From a virus (Duplodnaviria > Heunggongvirae > Uroviricota > Caudoviricetes), in IMG/VR virus record IMGVR_UViG_2537562216_000005: DNA of 6,099 bases. One strand, written 5' to 3'. The position numbers and the translations under genes were made by a program. Positions 796-6,099 of this stretch are shown one piece after another (the stretch's first letter is position 1; the number at the start of each line of letters is the position of its first letter). The notes under the pieces are model-generated. The model was not told the origin of the DNA. It worked only from the letters and a program-made list of their open reading frames with translations, and did no database searches.

Positions 796-815
796 AAACC
801 GCCCGCAGGCGGTTT
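796..815 (-). terminator. Putative terminator-like stem-loop in the I-J intergenic spacer (perfect 8-bp stem, 4-nt loop, T-rich tail on the minus strand)
   Basis: 796..803 (aaaccgcc) pairs perfectly with 808..815 (ggcggttt) around loop cgca (804..807). On the minus strand the hairpin reads AAACCGCC-TGCG-GGCGGTTT followed by TGTCGTTTAT, i.e. a GC-rich core stem with a U-rich 3' tail. The plus-strand reading has no U-tract after the stem. Function is not established. Confidence 0.3.
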
Positions 816-833
816 CACATAAAACATTTTGCA

Positions 834-1505
834 TCAGCGACCAATCACCACAACCTGACCACCGTCCCCTTCGTCTGCCGTGCTGATCTCCTGAGAAACC
901 ACGCGTGACCCCACGCGCATTTCCCCGTACAGAACAGGCAGAACATTGCCCTGGGCAACCATGTTATCCAGTGAGGAGAAATAGGTGTTCTGCTTACCGT
1001 TATCCGTTGTCTGTGTACGGGGAGTTCTGGCTTTCGGTGCCAGCATCTGCGCCACACCACCGAGCACCATACTGGCACCGAGAGAAAACAGGATGCCGGT
1101 CATACCACCGGCCCCAATGGCTGCCCCCCATGCTGCAAGGGTGGCTCCGGCGGTAAAGAATGATCCGGCAATGGCGGCAGCCCCCAGGACAATCTGGAAT
1201 ACGCCACCTGGCTTGGCCCCGGCGACTCTGGGAACAATATGAATCACAGCGCCATCAGGCAGAGTCTCATGTAACTGCGCCGTTAACCCGGACGTGCTGA
1301 CGTCCCGCCCGGCAATCCGTACCTGATACCAGCCGTCGCTCAGTTTCTGACGAAACGCCTGGAGCTGTGTGGCCAGTGCCCGAATGGCTTCAGCCCCCGT
1401 TTTCACACGAAGGTCGATGCGGCGGCCAAATCGTTGTAAATCCCCGTAAAGGCAGATGCGTGCCATGCCCGGTGACGCCAGAGGGAGTGTGTGCGTCGCT
1501 GCCAT
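834..1505 (-). CDS. I: Tail assembly protein I (223 aa); N-terminal ubiquitin-like domain ending in Gly-Gly (aa 100-101), then a glycine/alanine-rich hydrophobic segment
   Basis: 223-aa ORF starting MAATHTLPLASPGMARICLYGDLQRFGRR, matching lambda gpI in sequence and length. Stop TGA at 836..834. Overlaps the 3' end of K by 103 nt in a different frame, as in lambda. Confidence 0.93.
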   Translation of the reverse strand: MAATHTLPLASPGMARICLYGDLQRFGRRIDLRVKTGAEAIRALATQLQAFRQKLSDGWYQVRIAGRDVSTSGLTAQLHETLPDGAVIHIVPRVAGAKPGGVFQIVLGAAAIAGSFFTAGATLAAWGAAIGAGGMTGILFSLGASMVLGGVAQMLAPKARTPRTQTTDNGKQNTYFSSLDNMVAQGNVLPVLYGEMRVGSRVVSQEISTADEGDGGQVVVIGR

Positions 1506-2146
1506 TTGTCGGTATACCTCTCTCGTTTGCTCAGTTGTTCAGGAATATGGTGCAGCAGCTCGCCGTCACCACAGTAAATGGCGGCATGATTCGGCACCGA
1601 TGAACCAAAACAGCACAGCAGTACATCGCCCGGCTGCGCCGCTGACAACGGCACCTGATACAGCCCCGTTGCCTCCAGATTATCCAGATAGAGATTCTGG
1701 CCGTTACGCCACCAGTCATCCTCACGATGAAAATCCGGCATCTCAATCCCCGCCAGATGGTAAGCGTCCCGGAACAGCGTGTAACAGTCCATCACCCCGT
1801 GCTCAAAGCGTCGCCCGGTGAGATGCGGCACACAGCGGAACTTATGAATCGCCCCCCGGCAGACCAGCCACCACGGCAAATCACTCTGCACCTGCAGCCG
1901 CCGGTCAGCATCACTCAGCCAGGGCAGACCACCGGGGTGACTGTGGACCAGCGCCACAATCTCACCCTGAATTTCTGCCTGCAGCCAGTCCTCCGGAGCC
2001 ATCCGGAAATACGCCTCCGGCTCACCGGAGATATTCACGCAGGAAAAATATCTTTCCTCCTCCGGCGTTCTCACCACGAAGCCGCACGACTCCGCTGGCG
2101 CACATCGCCGGGCGTGCGCCAGAATCGCTGATTCTGTCTGTGTCAT
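1403..2146 (-). CDS. K: Tail tip assembly protein K, long form (247 aa) with N-terminal JAB/MPN metallopeptidase-like domain and C-terminal NlpC/P60 cysteine peptidase-like domain; the classical lambda annotation starts at the internal Met (2002), giving 199 aa
   Basis: The frame is open from 2188, but residues from MTQTESAILAHARR (ATG at 2146..2144, 4 nt after the L stop TAA at 2153..2151) are the plausible long form. HSHPGGLPWLSDAD fits the JAMM pattern HxH-x7-S-xx-D (about 1945..1904). NlpC/P60-like Cys (DCYTLF, about 1786..1784) and His (NHAAIY, LLHH) are present. The internal Met (RMAPEDWLQ) at 2002 is preceded by GGAGG about 11 nt upstream. Stop TGA at 1405..1403. Confidence 0.85.
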   Translation of the reverse strand: MTQTESAILAHARRCAPAESCGFVVRTPEEERYFSCVNISGEPEAYFRMAPEDWLQAEIQGEIVALVHSHPGGLPWLSDADRRLQVQSDLPWWLVCRGAIHKFRCVPHLTGRRFEHGVMDCYTLFRDAYHLAGIEMPDFHREDDWWRNGQNLYLDNLEATGLYQVPLSAAQPGDVLLCCFGSSVPNHAAIYCGDGELLHHIPEQLSKRERYTDKWQRRTHSLWRHRAWHASAFTGIYNDLAAASTFV

Positions 2147-2150
2147 GGGA

Positions 2151-2849
2151 TTACTGCGAAAGTTTGTTAATGGAAAGGAAGCCGCCAAAGTTGCCGACGT
2201 TATTGCGGAACTTACAACCGCTCAGGCATTTGCTGCATTTATCCTTCGTGATATCGGACGTTGGCTGGTCATATTCATCCGCGACCGCCGGACCGTGATA
2301 ACCGCACTCATCGCCGCGATAGGTCCAGGTGCAGGTGTTGGCCAGCATGATACGTCCCGGAAAAACAGCGCCGTCCGTTTCCGTCGGCGTGGACAGTACA
2401 AAGGAGGCACTCACCGCGCTCAGTTCGCTGCACTGCTCGATGCGCCAGCGGCTGATCACCTCCTGCTCCGGATCGGCGTCACTGTTTCCGTTGACGAAGT
2501 TCACCGCATCCAGAAAACGGGCGTAAACCTTACGCCGGACCACCGTTCCGCCGACCAGACTCTGCAGATCTTCCGCCATCCCGGTGACCATACCGTACAG
2601 GTTAGAAACCGTCAGTGTGGGGCGCGTACTGGTGCCTTTGCCATTCAGTTCAAAACCGCTCCCCTGAATGGGATACGCCTGATACTGCCTCCCCTGCCAG
2701 GTGACCGGCTCACCTTTTTCGTTCTGCTCATTACAGAAAAAATAACGTTCTCCACCGACCTCTGTCAGATCGATTTCCCAGAGCACCACGCTGGCCGACT
2801 GCTCCGCACGGGTGCATTCATTCAGTGTTTCCTGCCGGATATCCTGCAT
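2151..2849 (-). CDS. L: Minor tail protein L (232 aa)
   Basis: ORF beginning MQDIRQETLNECTRAEQSASVVLWEIDLTEVGGERYFFCNEQ matches lambda gpL in sequence and length. Start ATG (2849..2847) overlaps the M stop as TGATG. Several Cys residues near the C-terminus (CSKCLSGC) suggest a metal/Fe-S-binding motif. Confidence 0.95.
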   Translation of the reverse strand: MQDIRQETLNECTRAEQSASVVLWEIDLTEVGGERYFFCNEQNEKGEPVTWQGRQYQAYPIQGSGFELNGKGTSTRPTLTVSNLYGMVTGMAEDLQSLVGGTVVRRKVYARFLDAVNFVNGNSDADPEQEVISRWRIEQCSELSAVSASFVLSTPTETDGAVFPGRIMLANTCTWTYRGDECGYHGPAVADEYDQPTSDITKDKCSKCLSGCKFRNNVGNFGGFLSINKLSQ

Positions 2850-3178
2850 CAGTTCACCACCTGTTCAAACTCTGCGCTGAACTCAACACGCAGCATACTG
2901 ACCCGCGACGACCATTTTGCGCAGGTCACCTTTATCTGCCGCCACTCATAAGGCGGCGTCCACAGAAAGGATTTCCAGCCCCCGTGCTCTTCCAGAAACG
3001 ACTCCAGTACCGTGGCCTCCTCACGGGAGACAGAAAGCGTCACGCTGTACGTTTTCAGGTTGGCATTCAGCCCGGCAGGCGCTCGCTGGGAATAGCCATC
3101 ACCAAAGCGCACCTTTCTTACAGAAGGGACCGAAGCCACATCCATACCGGGTTTCACTTTCCAGCGGAAGGTTTTCAT
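2849..3178 (-). CDS. M: Minor tail protein M (109 aa)
   Basis: ORF beginning MKTFRWKVKPGMDVASVPSVRKVRFGDGYSQ matches lambda gpM in sequence and length. Start ATG overlaps the H stop as ATGA (3178..3175). Confidence 0.95.
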   Translation of the reverse strand: MKTFRWKVKPGMDVASVPSVRKVRFGDGYSQRAPAGLNANLKTYSVTLSVSREEATVLESFLEEHGGWKSFLWTPPYEWRQIKVTCAKWSSRVSMLRVEFSAEFEQVVN

Positions 3179-5730
3179 CGTCCACCTCCGGAGAACAGGC
3201 CACCATCACGCATCTGTGTCTGAATTTCATCACGGGCACCCTTGCGGGCCATGTCATACACCGCCTTCAGAGCAGCCGGACCTATCTGCCCGTTCGTGCC
3301 GTCGTTGTTAATCACCACATGGTTATTCTGCTCAAACGTCCCGGACGCCTGCGACCGGCTGTCTGCCATGCTGCCCGGTGTACCGACATAACCGCCGGTG
3401 GCATAGCCGCGCATCAGCCGGTAAAGATTCCCCACGCCAATCCGGCTGGTTGCCTCCTTCGTGAAGACAAACTCACCACGGTGAACAATCCCCGCTGGCT
3501 CATATTTGCCGCCGGTTCCCGTAAATCCTCCGGTTGCAAAATGGAATTTCGCCGCAGCGGCCTGAATGGCTGTACCGCCTGACGCGGATGCGCCGCCACC
3601 AACAGCCCCGCCAATGGCGCTGCCGATACTCCCGACAATCCCCACCATTGCCTGTTTAAGCAGAATTTCTGTCATCATGGACAGCACGGAACGGGTGAAG
3701 CTGCGCCAGTTCTGCTCACTGCCGGTCAGCATCGCCGCCATATTCTGCGCAATACCATCAAAGGTCTGCGTGGCTGCACTTTTAACCTGCGACATACTGT
3801 CCGTGGCGCTCTCTTCCCACTCACTCCAGCCGGACTTCAGGCCTGCCATCCAGCTCCCGCGAAGCTGGTCTTCAGCCGCCCAGGTCTTTTTCTGCTCTGA
3901 CATGACGTTATTCAGCGCCAGAGGATTATCGCCATACTGTTCCTTCAGGCGCTGTTCTGTGGCTTCCCGTTCTGCCTGCCGGTCAGTCAGCCCCCGGCTT
4001 TTCGCCTCAATGGCGGCCCGTTTTGCCCGTTGCTGCTGTGCGAATTTATCCGCCTGCTGCGCCAGCGCATTCAGGCGCTCCTGATACGTGACCTTATCGC
4101 CAAGTGCAGCCAGCTGGCGCTTGTACTCCAGTGTCTCATCTTTATGCGCCAGCAGGGATTTCTCCTGTGCGGACAGCTGGCGACGTTGTGCCGCCTCCTC
4201 CAGTACCGCAAACTGACTCTCCGCCTTCCACAAATCCCGGCGCTGCTGGCTGATTTTCTCATTCGCTCCGGCATGCTTCTCCAGCGTCCGGAGTTCTGCC
4301 TGAAGCGTCAGCAGGGCAGCATGAGCACTGTCTTCCTGACGATCGCCCGCAGACACCTTCACGCCTTTCGGCTTTTTCAGCGTCGCTTCATAATCCTTTT
4401 TCGCCGCCGCCATCAGCGTGTTGTAATCCGCCTGCAGGATTTTCCCGTCTTTCAGTGCCTTGTTCAGTTCTTCCTGACGGGCGGTATATTTCTCCAGCGG
4501 CGTCTGCAGGCGTTCGTAAGCCTTCTGCGCCTCTTCGGTATATTTCAGCCGTGACGCTTCGGTATCGCTCTGCTGCTGCGCATTTTTGTCCTGTTGAGTC
4601 TGCTGCTCAGCCTTCTTTCGGGCGGCTTCAAGCGCAAGACGGGCCTTTTCACGATCATCCCAGTAACGCGCCCGCGCTTCATCGTTAACAAAATAATCAT
4701 CCTTGCGCAGATTCCAGATGTCGTCTGCTTTCTTAAACGCAGCCTCTGCCTTAATCAGCATCTCCTGCGCGGTATCAGGACGACCAATATCCAGCACCGC
4801 ATCCCACATGGATTTGAATGCCCGTGCTGTCCTGTCTGCCCAGGTTTCCAGCGTGCCCATGTTCTCTTTCAGGCGGCGGGTCTGGTCATCAAACCCTTTC
4901 GTCGCGGCCTCGTTCGCCGCCTGCAATGCCCCGGCTTCTTCGCCGGAACGCTGCAACTGAGCAACATACGCAATCTGCTCCGCCGTCACGTTATGGAACT
5001 GGCGCGCCATCGCTGTCAGCCCCGACGTCGGGTCAGTGGTCAGCTTCCCGAAGGCTTCAGCGACCTTGTCCACCTCCACGCCGGATGCAGAGGAGAAACG
5101 CGCCACACTCTGGCTGATGGACGCAATCTGAGCCTCACCGCTTACCCCCGCCTTAACCAGTGCGCTGAGTGACTCGCTGGTCTGGTTAAACGTCAGCCCT
5201 GCCGCCTGCCCGGCTCTGGACAGGACCAGCATACGATCTGCCGTCAGCCCGGCCTGATTGCCGGAAAGGACCAGCGTTTTGTTGAAATCGGACAGGGTTG
5301 AGTTGCCCTGATACCAGGCATACGCCAGCGCACCGGTCGCCACCGCCAGCGAGGTGGCCCCCACCATCGGCAGGGTGATCGCACCGGCAAGCCCCCGGAA
5401 CATGGGGATCATCCCGCCGAAGGAGTCCTTCACCTGACCCCCCTGTTGCAGCAGGATCAGCCACGGACTTTGCCCGCCTGCAAGCTGCGTGGCCACGTCA
5501 GTGAACTGCGCAGGCAGCATACGCATGGCGGCTTTATACTGCCCGACGGAAATTCCCGCTTTCTGTGCAGCCAGCGCCTGCCGGTTCATCGACTGTTCAA
5601 CGACTGTCGCTGTTTTTTTCGCATCACTTTCCGTACCGGAAAAATGACGCCTGACTCTGGCCATCTGCTCGTCAAATCTGGCCGCATCCAGACTCAAATC
5701 AACGACCAGATCGCCTACCGGTTCAGCCAT
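3175..5730 (-). CDS. H: Tail length tape measure protein H (851 aa)
   Basis: 851-aa ORF beginning MAEPVGDLVVDLSLDAARFDEQMARVRRHFSG, recognisable as lambda gpH. It has a long Ala/Gln/Glu/Lys/Arg-rich central region with a coiled-coil look, and a Gly-rich hydrophobic C-terminal segment (IVGSIGSAIGGAVGGGASASGG). Its start overlaps the T stop by 8 nt, as in lambda. Confidence 0.95.
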   Translation of the reverse strand: MAEPVGDLVVDLSLDAARFDEQMARVRRHFSGTESDAKKTATVVEQSMNRQALAAQKAGISVGQYKAAMRMLPAQFTDVATQLAGGQSPWLILLQQGGQVKDSFGGMIPMFRGLAGAITLPMVGATSLAVATGALAYAWYQGNSTLSDFNKTLVLSGNQAGLTADRMLVLSRAGQAAGLTFNQTSESLSALVKAGVSGEAQIASISQSVARFSSASGVEVDKVAEAFGKLTTDPTSGLTAMARQFHNVTAEQIAYVAQLQRSGEEAGALQAANEAATKGFDDQTRRLKENMGTLETWADRTARAFKSMWDAVLDIGRPDTAQEMLIKAEAAFKKADDIWNLRKDDYFVNDEARARYWDDREKARLALEAARKKAEQQTQQDKNAQQQSDTEASRLKYTEEAQKAYERLQTPLEKYTARQEELNKALKDGKILQADYNTLMAAAKKDYEATLKKPKGVKVSAGDRQEDSAHAALLTLQAELRTLEKHAGANEKISQQRRDLWKAESQFAVLEEAAQRRQLSAQEKSLLAHKDETLEYKRQLAALGDKVTYQERLNALAQQADKFAQQQRAKRAAIEAKSRGLTDRQAEREATEQRLKEQYGDNPLALNNVMSEQKKTWAAEDQLRGSWMAGLKSGWSEWEESATDSMSQVKSAATQTFDGIAQNMAAMLTGSEQNWRSFTRSVLSMMTEILLKQAMVGIVGSIGSAIGGAVGGGASASGGTAIQAAAAKFHFATGGFTGTGGKYEPAGIVHRGEFVFTKEATSRIGVGNLYRLMRGYATGGYVGTPGSMADSRSQASGTFEQNNHVVINNDGTNGQIGPAALKAVYDMARKGARDEIQTQMRDGGLFSGGGR

Positions 5731-6099
5731 ACCGGACTCCTCCTGCGATCCCTTCTGATACTGTCATCAGCATTACGTCATCCTCCGTCATGTCCGCCAC
5801 ATCCGGGGAAGCGGGGATAACTTCATTCCCGTCCGGGCCAAAGCGGACGCCTCCGGCAAGCCCTGCCGCTTTCTGCATCAGCACATCATCTTCAGGCTCT
5901 TCGTCAGCCTCGCGCCGGTTCAGCAGACTGAAATCCAGCGGATGCATATCCGGATCGCTGAAAAACAGGCTGAGTACGGTGTACGTCAGCCCGGAAAAGT
6001 GCATATCCAGCAGAACATCATGAAAATAATGGGTACTGTAAAAGCGGTGCCAGTCGGCATACTCCGTGGATGACATCCCGGCAAGCATGGCGCGCCAGT
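5723..6099 (-). CDS. T: Tail assembly chaperone T-frame segment (C-terminal part of the G-T frameshift fusion); partial, reading frame continues past the window end
   Basis: ORF ...WRAMLAGMSSTEYADWHRFYSTHYFHDVLLDMHFSGLTYTVLSLFFSDPDMHPLDF...GGVRYG* matches the lambda T reading frame. Stop at 5725..5723. The frame is still open at 6097 (codons upstream of the listed Met read W-R-A). By lambda geometry the G stop and the G-T slippery site lie about 40-55 nt beyond the window end. Confidence 0.85.
   Translation of the reverse strand, partial: WRAMLAGMSSTEYADWHRFYSTHYFHDVLLDMHFSGLTYTVLSLFFSDPDMHPLDFSLLNRREADEEPEDDVLMQKAAGLAGGVRFGPDGNEVIPASPDVADMTEDDVMLMTVSEGIAGGVRYG

What the first reader, a model, noticed from the sequence alone, without database searches (positions are those of the whole stretch)
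834..2146. Ubiquitin-like domain (gpI) paired with a JAB/MPN plus NlpC/P60 double peptidase (gpK) inside the tail-tip assembly genes
Seen in sequence: gpI has a ~100-aa N-terminal domain ending in Gly-Gly (..HIVPRVAGAKPGG, aa 100-101), followed at once by a Gly/Ala-rich hydrophobic stretch. The overlapping upstream gene K carries a JAMM-type motif (HSHPGGLPWLSDAD) and a papain-like NlpC/P60 Cys/His set (C121, H187, H199/H200 in long-form numbering). Established knowledge: comparative genomics (Iyer, Burroughs and Aravind, 2006) predicted that lambda gpI is a beta-grasp/ubiquitin-like protein and gpK a JAB plus NlpC/P60 fusion. Inference: K may cleave I after the Gly-Gly, or hydrolyse an I conjugate, during tail-tip assembly. 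To my knowledge this has not been shown biochemically, so it is the least-understood element of an otherwise textbook region.
Basis: partly seen in the sequence, partly recalled or inferred. Interest (0 to 1): 0.55.

Follow-up and report, generated by a model that had tools for sequence, protein, structure and literature searches.

The report
Lambda tail-tip ubiquitin-like domain and protease
Two overlapping tail genes of a lambda-like phage encode a tail-tip plug protein that carries a removable ubiquitin-like domain and the double protease that removes it; the pairing is real, but it was predicted in 2006 and has since been reported as tested, so it is not new.

Summary

Iyer et al. (2006) predicted this cleavage. 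Cryo-EM of lambda sees gpI only from about residue 101 or 134 onward. gpK is absent from virions. [quoted passage not shown] F-pyocin data agree.

One refinement: the family-conserved ubiquitin-type C-terminus is G96-A97 (IVPRVAG-A, aligning with CysO ILPAVAG-G). The role of the invariant NlpC/P60 active site remains open.

The parts
1403..2146 (-). Gene K, long form (247 aa): cytoplasmic tail-tip assembly protease that is not part of the virion
   Evidence: ORF and motifs. Pfam Prok-JAB plus NLPC_P60. Annotated at 247 aa in phage 21 and ev017 but at 199 aa in lambda records. gpK is absent from virions by mass spectrometry.
1853..2140 (-). JAB/MPN+ (JAMM) metalloprotease domain of K, residues 3-98. 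Catalytic E19 is at 2090-2092. The motif H68-x-H70-x7-S78-x2-D81 is at 1904-1945.
   Evidence: Pfam E = 3e-13. E19, H68, S69, H70, S78 and D81 are invariant in 11 phages at 27-57% identity. The K profile hits solved JAMM proteins 2kks (7e-12), 2kcq, JAMM1 5lda, AfJAMM and Rpn11. E19 and residues 1-48 are missing from the 199-aa lambda annotation.
1475..1816 (-). NlpC/P60 (C40) papain-like cysteine peptidase domain of K, residues 111-224. C121 is at 1784-1786, H187 at 1586-1588 and H199/H200 at 1547-1552.
   Evidence: Pfam E = 3.1e-13. D120, C121, N186, H187, H199 and H200 are invariant. Weak profile matches to MepS/Spr and LytE. Its substrate is unknown.
834..1505 (-). Gene I (223-aa precursor): ubiquitin-like pro-domain, two hydrophobic helices and a C-terminal plug domain
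   Evidence: ORF. It has 3 amino-acid differences from lambda gpI as deposited in PDB 8iyk.
1215..1466 (-). Ubiquitin-like beta-grasp domain of I, residues 14-97, ending in the family-conserved P92-x3-G96-[A/S]97. G96-A97 is at 1215-1220.
1203..1208 (-). It lies in a short variable linker (residues 98-101).
   Evidence: Present here. Conserved in only 27 (G100) and 46 (G101) of 58 homologues, and the linker varies in length. The closed-state lambda model is described as resolved from residue 101.
1041..1202 (-). Two Gly/Ala-rich hydrophobic helices of I (residues 102-155; H1 and H2 in the literature), proposed elsewhere to insert into the host outer membrane
   Evidence: GRAVY +1.5, 44% Gly+Ala. 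The model places helices at 101-129 and 136-155. G108, G143 and G150 are invariant. Described.
837..1040 (-). C-terminal plug domain of I (residues 156-223), which stays in the virion tip lumen as a trimer bound to the C-terminus of gpH
   Evidence: Cryo-EM descriptions. F176, N181, G186, P190, G194, G199 and S204 are nearly invariant.
1403..1505 (-). K/I overlap of 103 nt in different frames (64 nt if I starts at M14)
   Evidence: Both differences from lambda that fall in K codons 214-247 change the K protein. Homologous pairs in other phages overlap by only 1-20 nt.

Best explanation
This is the lambda-type gpK/gpI tail-tip maturation pair.

Proposed mechanism:
1. gpI is made as a 223-aa precursor. 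It has an N-terminal ThiS/MoaD-type ubiquitin-like beta-grasp domain (about residues 14-97), a 4-residue linker, two hydrophobic helices and a C-terminal plug domain.
2. gpK is made from the long 247-aa reading frame. It is a soluble, non-virion enzyme with a JAMM zinc metalloprotease domain and an NlpC/P60 cysteine peptidase domain.
3. After gpI has docked with gpJ and gpL in the nascent tip, the JAMM domain recognises the beta-grasp domain as a deubiquitinase recognises ubiquitin.
4. It cuts at or next to the conserved G96-A97. [quoted passage not shown]
5. Removal acts as an assembly checkpoint that licenses the tip to bind the tape measure and nucleate the tube.

Status of each step:
- Shown here: the domain identities, the fold, the conservation of both active sites and of G96, and the presence of all three modules in every locus sampled.
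- Taken from the literature: absence of the N-terminal domain and of gpK from virions, and cleavage by gpK.
- Inferred: the exact bond; which of the two peptidase domains cuts (JAMM is favoured); and the role of the domain before removal, as a steric block and/or a solubility chaperone for the hydrophobic helices.
For: - Domains: Pfam hits for both K domains and for I. The K profile hits solved JAMM proteins, including the archaeal JAMM1 that processes ubiquitin-like SAMPs. The best NCBIfam hit for K is 'desampylase'.
- Fold: confident model of I residues 11-97, matching SAMP1, MoaD and CysO.
- Selection: complete JAMM and Cys-His-His sets are invariant at 27-57% identity. P92 is invariant and G96 nearly so across 57-58 homologues at 31-60% identity. 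G96-A97 aligns with the terminal Gly-Gly of CysO.
- Co-occurrence: 10 of 10 sampled K genes next to an I gene, from Providencia, Burkholderia, Klebsiella, Escherichia, Vibrio, Moraxella, Rhizobium and Stenotrophomonas phages, carry both domains. A cyanophage has all three modules. Phage records with gpI, K-NlpC and K-JAB number 1726, 1748 and 1387, with matching genus breakdowns.
- Literature:
  - The 2006 prediction.
  - gpI resolved only from residue 101, 134 or 135.
  - gpK not detected in virions.
  - In F-pyocin, the N-terminus of PA0640 is absent from mature particles but present in stalled tips, and the gpK homologue PA0639 is required.
Against: - The direct experiment is known to me only from a second-hand conference summary. 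No primary data were available, and a paper of August 2026 still calls the function of the gpK counterpart unclear.
- The cleavage site is not established. The JAMM assignment for the cut rests on analogy, and the equally conserved NlpC/P60 site has no explanation in this model.
- F-pyocin PA0640 loses its N-terminal region when expressed alone in E. coli, so host proteases can also remove it.
Confidence: 0.85

Rival explanations
1. The NlpC/P60 cysteine peptidase domain, not the JAMM domain, makes the cut in gpI. In this reading the JAMM domain mainly binds the beta-grasp domain or makes a different cut.
For: C121, H187, H199 and H200 are as invariant as the JAMM residues. [quoted passage not shown] Papain-fold enzymes include many deubiquitinases (established knowledge).
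Against: JAMM enzymes are the known partners of ThiS/MoaD-type ubiquitin-like proteins, and K's nearest named relatives are desampylase and JAMM1. The meeting report attributes the activity to the 'deubiquitinating domain'. Every K homologue sampled keeps a complete JAMM motif.
Confidence: 0.12
2. gpK acts as an isopeptidase on conjugates. [quoted passage not shown]
For: [quoted passage not shown] JAMM enzymes cleave isopeptide bonds (established knowledge).
Against: No E1 or E2 is encoded in the window, and lambda is not known to encode one. The conserved Gly of gpI is internal, so conjugation would itself need prior cleavage and activation. K is required for tail assembly in ordinary laboratory hosts (classical lambda genetics). 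The F-pyocin homologue is needed in a setting with no Bil system described. K sits beside an I gene carrying the ubiquitin-like domain in every locus sampled, which fits a dedicated substrate. A secondary anti-Bil role is not excluded.
Confidence: 0.07
3. gpK is the phage's cell-wall hydrolase: the NlpC/P60 domain cuts peptidoglycan during infection or lysis, and the JAB/Ubl resemblance is incidental.
For: NlpC/P60 enzymes are typically peptidoglycan endopeptidases. K gives weak matches to MepS/Spr and LytE and to TIGR02219 'putative phage cell wall peptidase'. The lambda enzyme that opens the cell wall at entry is unidentified.
Against: gpK is not detected in virions by mass spectrometry and is not resolved in any cryo-EM map, so it cannot act at entry. 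This reading does not explain the invariant JAMM site or the loss of the gpI N-terminus.
Confidence: 0.04
4. The ubiquitin-like domain is not cleaved in lambda. It stays attached and is merely disordered, so it is invisible to cryo-EM.
For: Two lambda studies simply report the N-terminal part as unresolved, and one speculates that it may still have a function.
Against: About 100 extra residues per chain, three chains per tip, would need to fit in or near a closed lumen. F-pyocin peptide coverage shows true loss in mature particles, and the meeting report states cleavage. A conserved JAMM partner would have no purpose.
Confidence: 0.03

Closest known systems
Phage lambda gpK / gpI (TAPK / TAPI of Iyer, Burroughs and Aravind 2006; UniProt 'tail tip assembly protein K / I')
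   Same: This is the same gene pair. The region is 97.4% identical in DNA, with the same gene order L-K-I-J and the same overlap. The domain architecture and the predicted cleavage match the 2006 paper.
   Different: There are 3 amino-acid changes in I (Q49 for P, P99 for S, T164 for I) and 10 in K, none at catalytic or conserved positions. Lambda records annotate K as 199 aa, which removes E19 and half of the JAB domain.
F-type pyocin PA0640 (tip plug) and PA0639 (gpK homologue) of Pseudomonas aeruginosa
   Same: PA0640 is a gpI homologue whose N-terminal region is absent from mature particles but present in assembly-stalled tips. The gpK homologue PA0639 is absent from particles and is required for tip formation. 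The authors call this a 'proteolytic checkpoint'. The 200-aa PDB chain 25vf_9, labelled only 'putative phage tail assembly protein', matches the gpI profile at E = 1.4e-50. That it is PA0640 is my guess from the matching length; I did not check the source organism.
   Different: It is a tailocin, not a phage. The authors did not identify the protease and did not note the ubiquitin-like/JAB logic.
JAMM proteases paired with ThiS/MoaD-type ubiquitin-like proteins: Mec+/CysO, QbsD/QbsE, archaeal JAMM1 (desampylase) with SAMPs
   Same: A JAMM enzyme acts at the C-terminal Gly of a MoaD-like beta-grasp protein. The gpI domain is structurally closest to SAMP1, CysO and MoaD, and K is closest to JAMM1/desampylase.
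   Different: In those systems the beta-grasp protein is the working product, a sulfur carrier or modifier activated by an E1 (established knowledge). Here it is a discarded pro-domain on a structural protein, no E1 is present, the second residue is Ala or Ser rather than Gly, and the protease is fused to an NlpC/P60 domain.
Eukaryotic ubiquitin-ribosomal protein fusions (UBA52, RPS27A)
   Same: The logic is the same: an N-terminal ubiquitin fold fused to a structural protein of a large assembly, removed by a deubiquitinase, and thought to aid production or assembly of the partner (established knowledge, not tested here).
   Different: The lineage, the protease class and the cargo are unrelated. 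This is an analogy only.
Bil (BilABCD) and related bacterial ubiquitin-like conjugation defence systems
   Same: They involve a ubiquitin-like protein and a JAB-type deubiquitinase, and they act on the siphophage tail tip.
   Different: [quoted passage not shown] The K/I pair is phage-encoded, has no conjugation machinery and promotes assembly.
Phage T5 baseplate hub protein pb3 plug domain
   Same: It occupies the same position and has the same tripod plug role as the C-terminal domain of gpI.
   Different: In T5 the plug is an internal domain of pb3. The source read here mentions no ubiquitin-like pro-domain and no gpK-type protease for T5.

Membership tests
JAB/MPN+ (JAMM) metalloproteases (Pfam PF14464 Prok-JAB) | Profile match above the curated threshold | tested here: met
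   50.1 bits against a cut-off of 25, E = 3e-13, K residues 3-98. 10 of 10 homologues also pass.
JAB/MPN+ (JAMM) metalloproteases (Pfam PF14464 Prok-JAB) | Catalytic motif E ... H-x-H-x7-S-x2-D (zinc ligands plus general base) | tested here: met
   E19, H68, H70, S78 and D81 are present and invariant in 11 phages. The motif is complete only in the 247-aa reading of K.
JAB/MPN+ (JAMM) metalloproteases (Pfam PF14464 Prok-JAB) | Zinc-dependent peptidase or isopeptidase activity on a ubiquitin-like substrate | not testable with these tools
   Only a second-hand report that gpK cleaves the gpI ubiquitin-like domain.
NlpC/P60 (MEROPS C40) papain-like peptidases (Pfam PF00877) | Profile match above the curated threshold | tested here: met
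   50.1 bits against a cut-off of 23, E = 3.1e-13, K residues 111-224. 10 of 10 homologues pass.
NlpC/P60 (MEROPS C40) papain-like peptidases (Pfam PF00877) | Cys-His-(His/polar) catalytic triad in the canonical order | tested here: met
   C121, H187 and H199 (plus H200) are present and invariant.
NlpC/P60 (MEROPS C40) papain-like peptidases (Pfam PF00877) | Hydrolysis of a cell-wall peptide or another defined substrate | not testable with these tools
   The substrate is unknown. Absence of gpK from virions argues against a role at entry.
ThiS/MoaD-type ubiquitin-like beta-grasp proteins | Beta-grasp fold | tested here: met
ThiS/MoaD-type ubiquitin-like beta-grasp proteins | Conserved Gly at the C-terminal end of the fold (Gly-Gly in canonical members) | tested here: met
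   G96 is present in 56 of 58 homologues and aligns with the penultimate Gly of CysO. The next residue is Ala or Ser in 53 of 58, not Gly. Here the Gly is internal rather than a free C-terminus.
ThiS/MoaD-type ubiquitin-like beta-grasp proteins | Partner E1-like adenylating enzyme, with a sulfur-carrier or conjugation function | tested here: not met
   No E1- or E2-like ORF is in the 6.1-kb window or in the flanks of the sampled loci. gpI therefore shares the fold and the JAMM partnership, but it is not a functional ThiS/MoaD/SAMP-type carrier.
Lambda tail assembly protein I family (Pfam PF06805) | Profile match, and position between K and J in a lambda-type tail-tip module | tested here: met
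   98.3 bits against a cut-off of 23.8. Gene order L-K-I-J.
Bacterial ubiquitin-like conjugation systems (Bil and similar) | E1, E2, a free ubiquitin-like protein ending in Gly, and a deubiquitinase in one operon | tested here: not met
   Only the deubiquitinase-like and ubiquitin-like modules are present, and the ubiquitin-like module is fused to a structural protein.

The most novel reading that the evidence does not exclude
The strictly conserved NlpC/P60 active site of gpK has no assigned substrate. It may carry out a second, undescribed processing step in tail maturation. [quoted passage not shown] A secondary anti-Bil deubiquitinase role for the JAMM domain is a further possibility.
Probability: 0.12. 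Interest if true: 0.6.

Novelty: already known. Interest (0 to 1): 0.22.

Why it matters
The pair is a clear prokaryotic case of a ubiquitin fold and a JAMM deubiquitinase working as one unit without any conjugation machinery. A removable ubiquitin-like pro-domain gates one step in building a virus tail. This bears on the origin of ubiquitin signalling and on the engineering of phage tails and tailocins.

None of that is new to this window. The idea dates from 2006 and the experiments have been reported. This analysis adds four practical points:
- The conserved ubiquitin-type terminus is G96-A97, not G100-G101.
- The 199-aa lambda annotation of K removes a catalytic residue.
- The 190-aa annotation of I truncates the beta-grasp domain.
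- The role of the NlpC/P60 site is still unexplained.

Tried and rejected
- Single-sequence AlphaFold of gpI gave an unusable model (mean pLDDT 39). The alignment-based run replaced it.
- The search for related loci with gpI alone returned 80 loci, each 98-99% identical to the query. With the diverse alignment it failed for lack of a conserved 7-10 residue stretch. I switched to tblastn against annotated phages and fetched 14 diverse loci.
- Apparent K-I and JAB-I 'fusion' proteins among close homologues were examined. P0009 (351 aa, NlpC/P60 plus Lambda_tail_I) comes from a one-member cluster, consistent with a frameshift. P0030 joins half a JAB domain to half a ubiquitin-like domain, which looks like a deletion. 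Neither is evidence of natural fusion.
- A programmed K-to-I frameshift was considered because of the 103-nt overlap. Other phages overlap by only 1-20 nt, and the overlap comes from a lineage-specific C-terminal tail on K. I found no support for a frameshift.
- The Synechococcus phage S-H1 hit looked like an I homologue without a ubiquitin-like domain. Profile comparison showed the domain is present, so it is not a decoupled case.
- Rfam found no RNA family in the window. The promoter scan of 700-2300 found no sites.
- Three further literature searches found no primary paper or preprint with the gpK/gpI cleavage experiments. The T1 tail-tip paper says nothing on the matter.
Full report
**1. 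What the window is**

The 6,099-base window carries, on the minus strand, the lambda tail genes:

| Gene | Coordinates | Size |
|---|---|---|
| T part of G-T | 5723-6088 | - |
| H | 3175-5730 | 851 aa |
| M | 2849-3178 | - |
| L | 2151-2849 | - |
| K | 1403-2146 | 247 aa |
| I | 834-1505 | 223 aa |
| J (start only) | ATG at 773 | - |

The stretch 700-2300 is 97.4% identical to phage lambda and up to 97.6% identical to other lambdoid phages. M and L match their Pfam families. Rfam finds nothing.

**2. Check of the observation**

- I has G100-G101 in ...HIVPRVAGAKPGG. A 54-residue hydrophobic Gly/Ala-rich stretch follows (GRAVY +1.5).
- K, read from the ATG at 2146, has H68-S-H70-x7-S78-x2-D81 plus E19, which is a complete JAMM motif. 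It also has C121, H187 and H199/H200.
- Pfam scores K as Prok-JAB (residues 3-98, E = 3e-13) plus NLPC_P60 (111-224, E = 3.1e-13), and I as Lambda_tail_I (14-97, E = 3.5e-28). All are well above the curated cut-offs.
That paper found the ubiquitin-like domain in 'TAPI' and the JAB plus NlpC/P60 domains in 'TAPK'. It proposed that the JAB domain releases the ubiquitin-like domain by cutting at its C-terminal-most glycine.

**3. Is gpI 1-101 a beta-grasp?**

A single-sequence model was useless. With an alignment of 57 homologues at 31-60% identity, AlphaFold2 gives pLDDT of 93 or more in every 10-residue block from 11 to 90. The order of elements is strand, short helix, strand, helix, strand, strand, which is a beta-grasp.

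**4. Where the domain ends**

The counts among 58 diverse homologues are:

| Position | Present in |
|---|---|
| P92 | 58 |
| G96 | 56 |
| [A/S]97 | 53 |
| G100 | 27 |
| G101 | 46 |

The segment between residue 97 and the hydrophobic helix varies in length. A profile of the ubiquitin-like region alone aligns CysO '...DGDTLTILPAVAG89', whose chain ends at G90, with gpI '...DGAVIHIVPRVAG96', followed by A97. That match has E = 0.3 on its own, but the structural match to the same chain backs it.

The ubiquitin-type 'Gly-Gly' position is therefore G96-A97. Ge and Wang state that the closed-state lambda model is resolved from residue 101, which fits a cut at either place. I could not determine the scissile bond.

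**5. Is gpK a working enzyme, and does it travel with the domain?**

In 11 K proteins at 27-57% identity, the following residues are all invariant:
- JAMM set: E19, H68, S69, H70, S78, D81.
- NlpC/P60 set: D120, C121, N186, H187, H199, H200.

The phage hosts were Escherichia, Providencia, Burkholderia, Klebsiella/Raoultella, Vibrio, Moraxella, Rhizobium and Stenotrophomonas. All 10 fetched homologues pass both Pfam thresholds.

The K profile hits solved JAMM proteins: 2kks, 2kcq, the SAMP-processing JAMM1, AfJAMM and Rpn11. It hits MepS/Spr and LytE more weakly.

tblastn against 50,697 phage records finds gpI in 1,726, the NlpC/P60 half of K in 1,748 and the shorter, more divergent JAB half in 1,387. 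The genus breakdowns are almost the same.

The one apparent exception was Synechococcus phage S-H1. It turned out to have a separate JAB ORF, an overlapping NlpC/P60 ORF and a 432-aa I homologue with the ubiquitin-like domain (hhalign probability 99.8%). I found no decoupled case.

**6. What the literature adds**

- Lambda cryo-EM studies resolve gpI only from residue 135, 134 or 101. It appears as a trimeric plug that holds the C-terminal helices of gpH.
- gpK is not detected in virions by mass spectrometry.
[quoted passage not shown] The gpK homologue PA0639 is absent from particles and is required for tip formation. The authors describe a proteolytic checkpoint but did not identify the protease.
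[quoted passage not shown] The methods named were structure prediction, biochemistry and phage mutants. Cleavage happened only after gpI had engaged other tip proteins, which enforces stepwise assembly.
- I found no primary paper or preprint. A paper of August 2026 still calls the function of the gpK counterpart unclear.

**7. Mechanism**

The best-supported account has four steps:
1. gpI is made as a precursor.
2. Its ubiquitin-like domain probably blocks premature docking of the tape measure and tube. It may also keep the two membrane-type helices soluble (inference; the steric-shield idea is).
3. Once gpI sits in the J-L-I complex, the JAMM domain of gpK cuts at or beside G96-A97.
4. The free domain and gpK leave, and the fragment of about 12.5 kDa remains as the plug.

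My confidence is 0.85. The rival readings are cutting by the NlpC/P60 domain, a conjugate-isopeptidase or anti-Bil role, a cell-wall hydrolase, and no cleavage at all. Each is set out with evidence in the Rival explanations section.

**8. Comparison and novelty**

This is lambda gpK/gpI itself, with 3 and 10 amino-acid changes at non-critical positions.

It works like the JAMM/ThiS-MoaD pairs Mec+/CysO, QbsD/QbsE and JAMM1/SAMP. It fails the membership test for a carrier or modifier system because there is no E1 and the ubiquitin-like domain is a discarded pro-domain. The nearest functional analogy is the eukaryotic ubiquitin-ribosomal protein fusions.

The finding is correct and already known. 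The open residue is the unexplained, strictly conserved NlpC/P60 site. One speculative target is the gpH to gpH* cleavage, whose protease is unknown.

**9. Annotation points**

- Lambda records annotate K as 199 aa starting at M49. This removes E19 and half of the JAB domain. Phage 21 and RefSeq ev017 use the 247-aa frame.
- The frame is open in lambda, and the Pfam match starts at residue 3.
- I is annotated as 223, 210 or 190 aa in different records. The 190-aa version would remove the first two beta strands and the conserved G21, L23 and G27.

Noticed in passing
window 2003-2146 (-), K codons 1-48: Lambda records annotate K as 199 aa starting at M49, which has a GGAGG upstream. The 247-aa frame starts 4 nt after the L stop and is the only one that includes catalytic E19 and the first half of the JAB domain. 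Phage 21 and RefSeq ev017 annotate the long form. The 6 substitutions against lambda in these 48 codons are 3 synonymous and 3 non-synonymous, too few to be decisive.
   Followed up: partly
window 1403-1505 (-); I starts at 1505 (M1), 1466 (M14) or about 1406 (codon 34): The start of I is annotated inconsistently across databases, at 223, 210 or 190 aa. The 190-aa form, which gives a 4-nt overlap with K, would cut off beta strands 1-2 of the ubiquitin-like fold. Most distant homologues start at the position of M14. The long K/I overlap is specific to the lambda lineage and comes from an extra C-terminal tail on K; other phages overlap by 1-20 nt.
   Followed up: partly
window 796-815 (-), between the I stop (834) and the J start (773): A GC-rich hairpin, AAACCGCC-UGCG-GGCGGUUU, followed by UGUCGUUU lies in the I-J spacer. 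The fold has dG -20.5 kcal/mol and z = -2.1. It is annotated as a terminator in the phage 21 record, but the simple terminator scan missed it. It could attenuate J expression or stabilise the upstream mRNA.
   Followed up: partly
L089 (Synechococcus phage S-H1) 1331-3352: In this cyanophage the JAB domain (ORF 1331-1741) and the NlpC/P60 domain (ORF 1720-2112) lie in separate overlapping ORFs, the second of which is not annotated. The I homologue is 432 aa, with about 185 extra C-terminal residues of unknown nature. This is either a true split of K or a frameshift in the record.
   Followed up: partly
L087 1715-1939; L088 1429-1929; L093 328-1921: Extra genes are inserted between K and I in some phages. 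ECP1 has a YebO-like small protein. Vibrio phage Pm34 has a 166-aa protein with no family. Vibrio phage Cla has an anti-repressor and a KilA-N pair on the opposite strand, plus a zinc-ribbon protein. Strict K-I adjacency and translational coupling are therefore not required.
   Followed up: no
window 3175-5730 (-), gene H, C-terminal Gly-rich region: The tape-measure protein is 851 aa here (853 in lambda according to the literature). It carries the glycine-rich stretch (...GSIGSAIGGAVGGGASASGG...) near where gpH is cut to gpH* and gpHC. The site and the protease of that cut are stated to be unknown.
   Followed up: no
protein P0168: A 2,783-aa representative protein matched gpI residues 10-59 in 24 separate stretches (E = 8e-38). 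Its sequence is a short, degenerate tandem repeat that looks like translated satellite DNA, so the match is probably spurious and not a poly-ubiquitin-like protein.
   Followed up: partly
proteins P0009, P0013, P0015, P0017, P0030 and others: Many near-identical E. coli database entries fuse part of K to I (335-389 aa), and one joins half a JAB domain to half a ubiquitin-like domain (245 aa). Nearly all are clusters of one or two sequences. They look like frameshifts or deletions in prophages or assemblies rather than natural fusions.
   Followed up: partly
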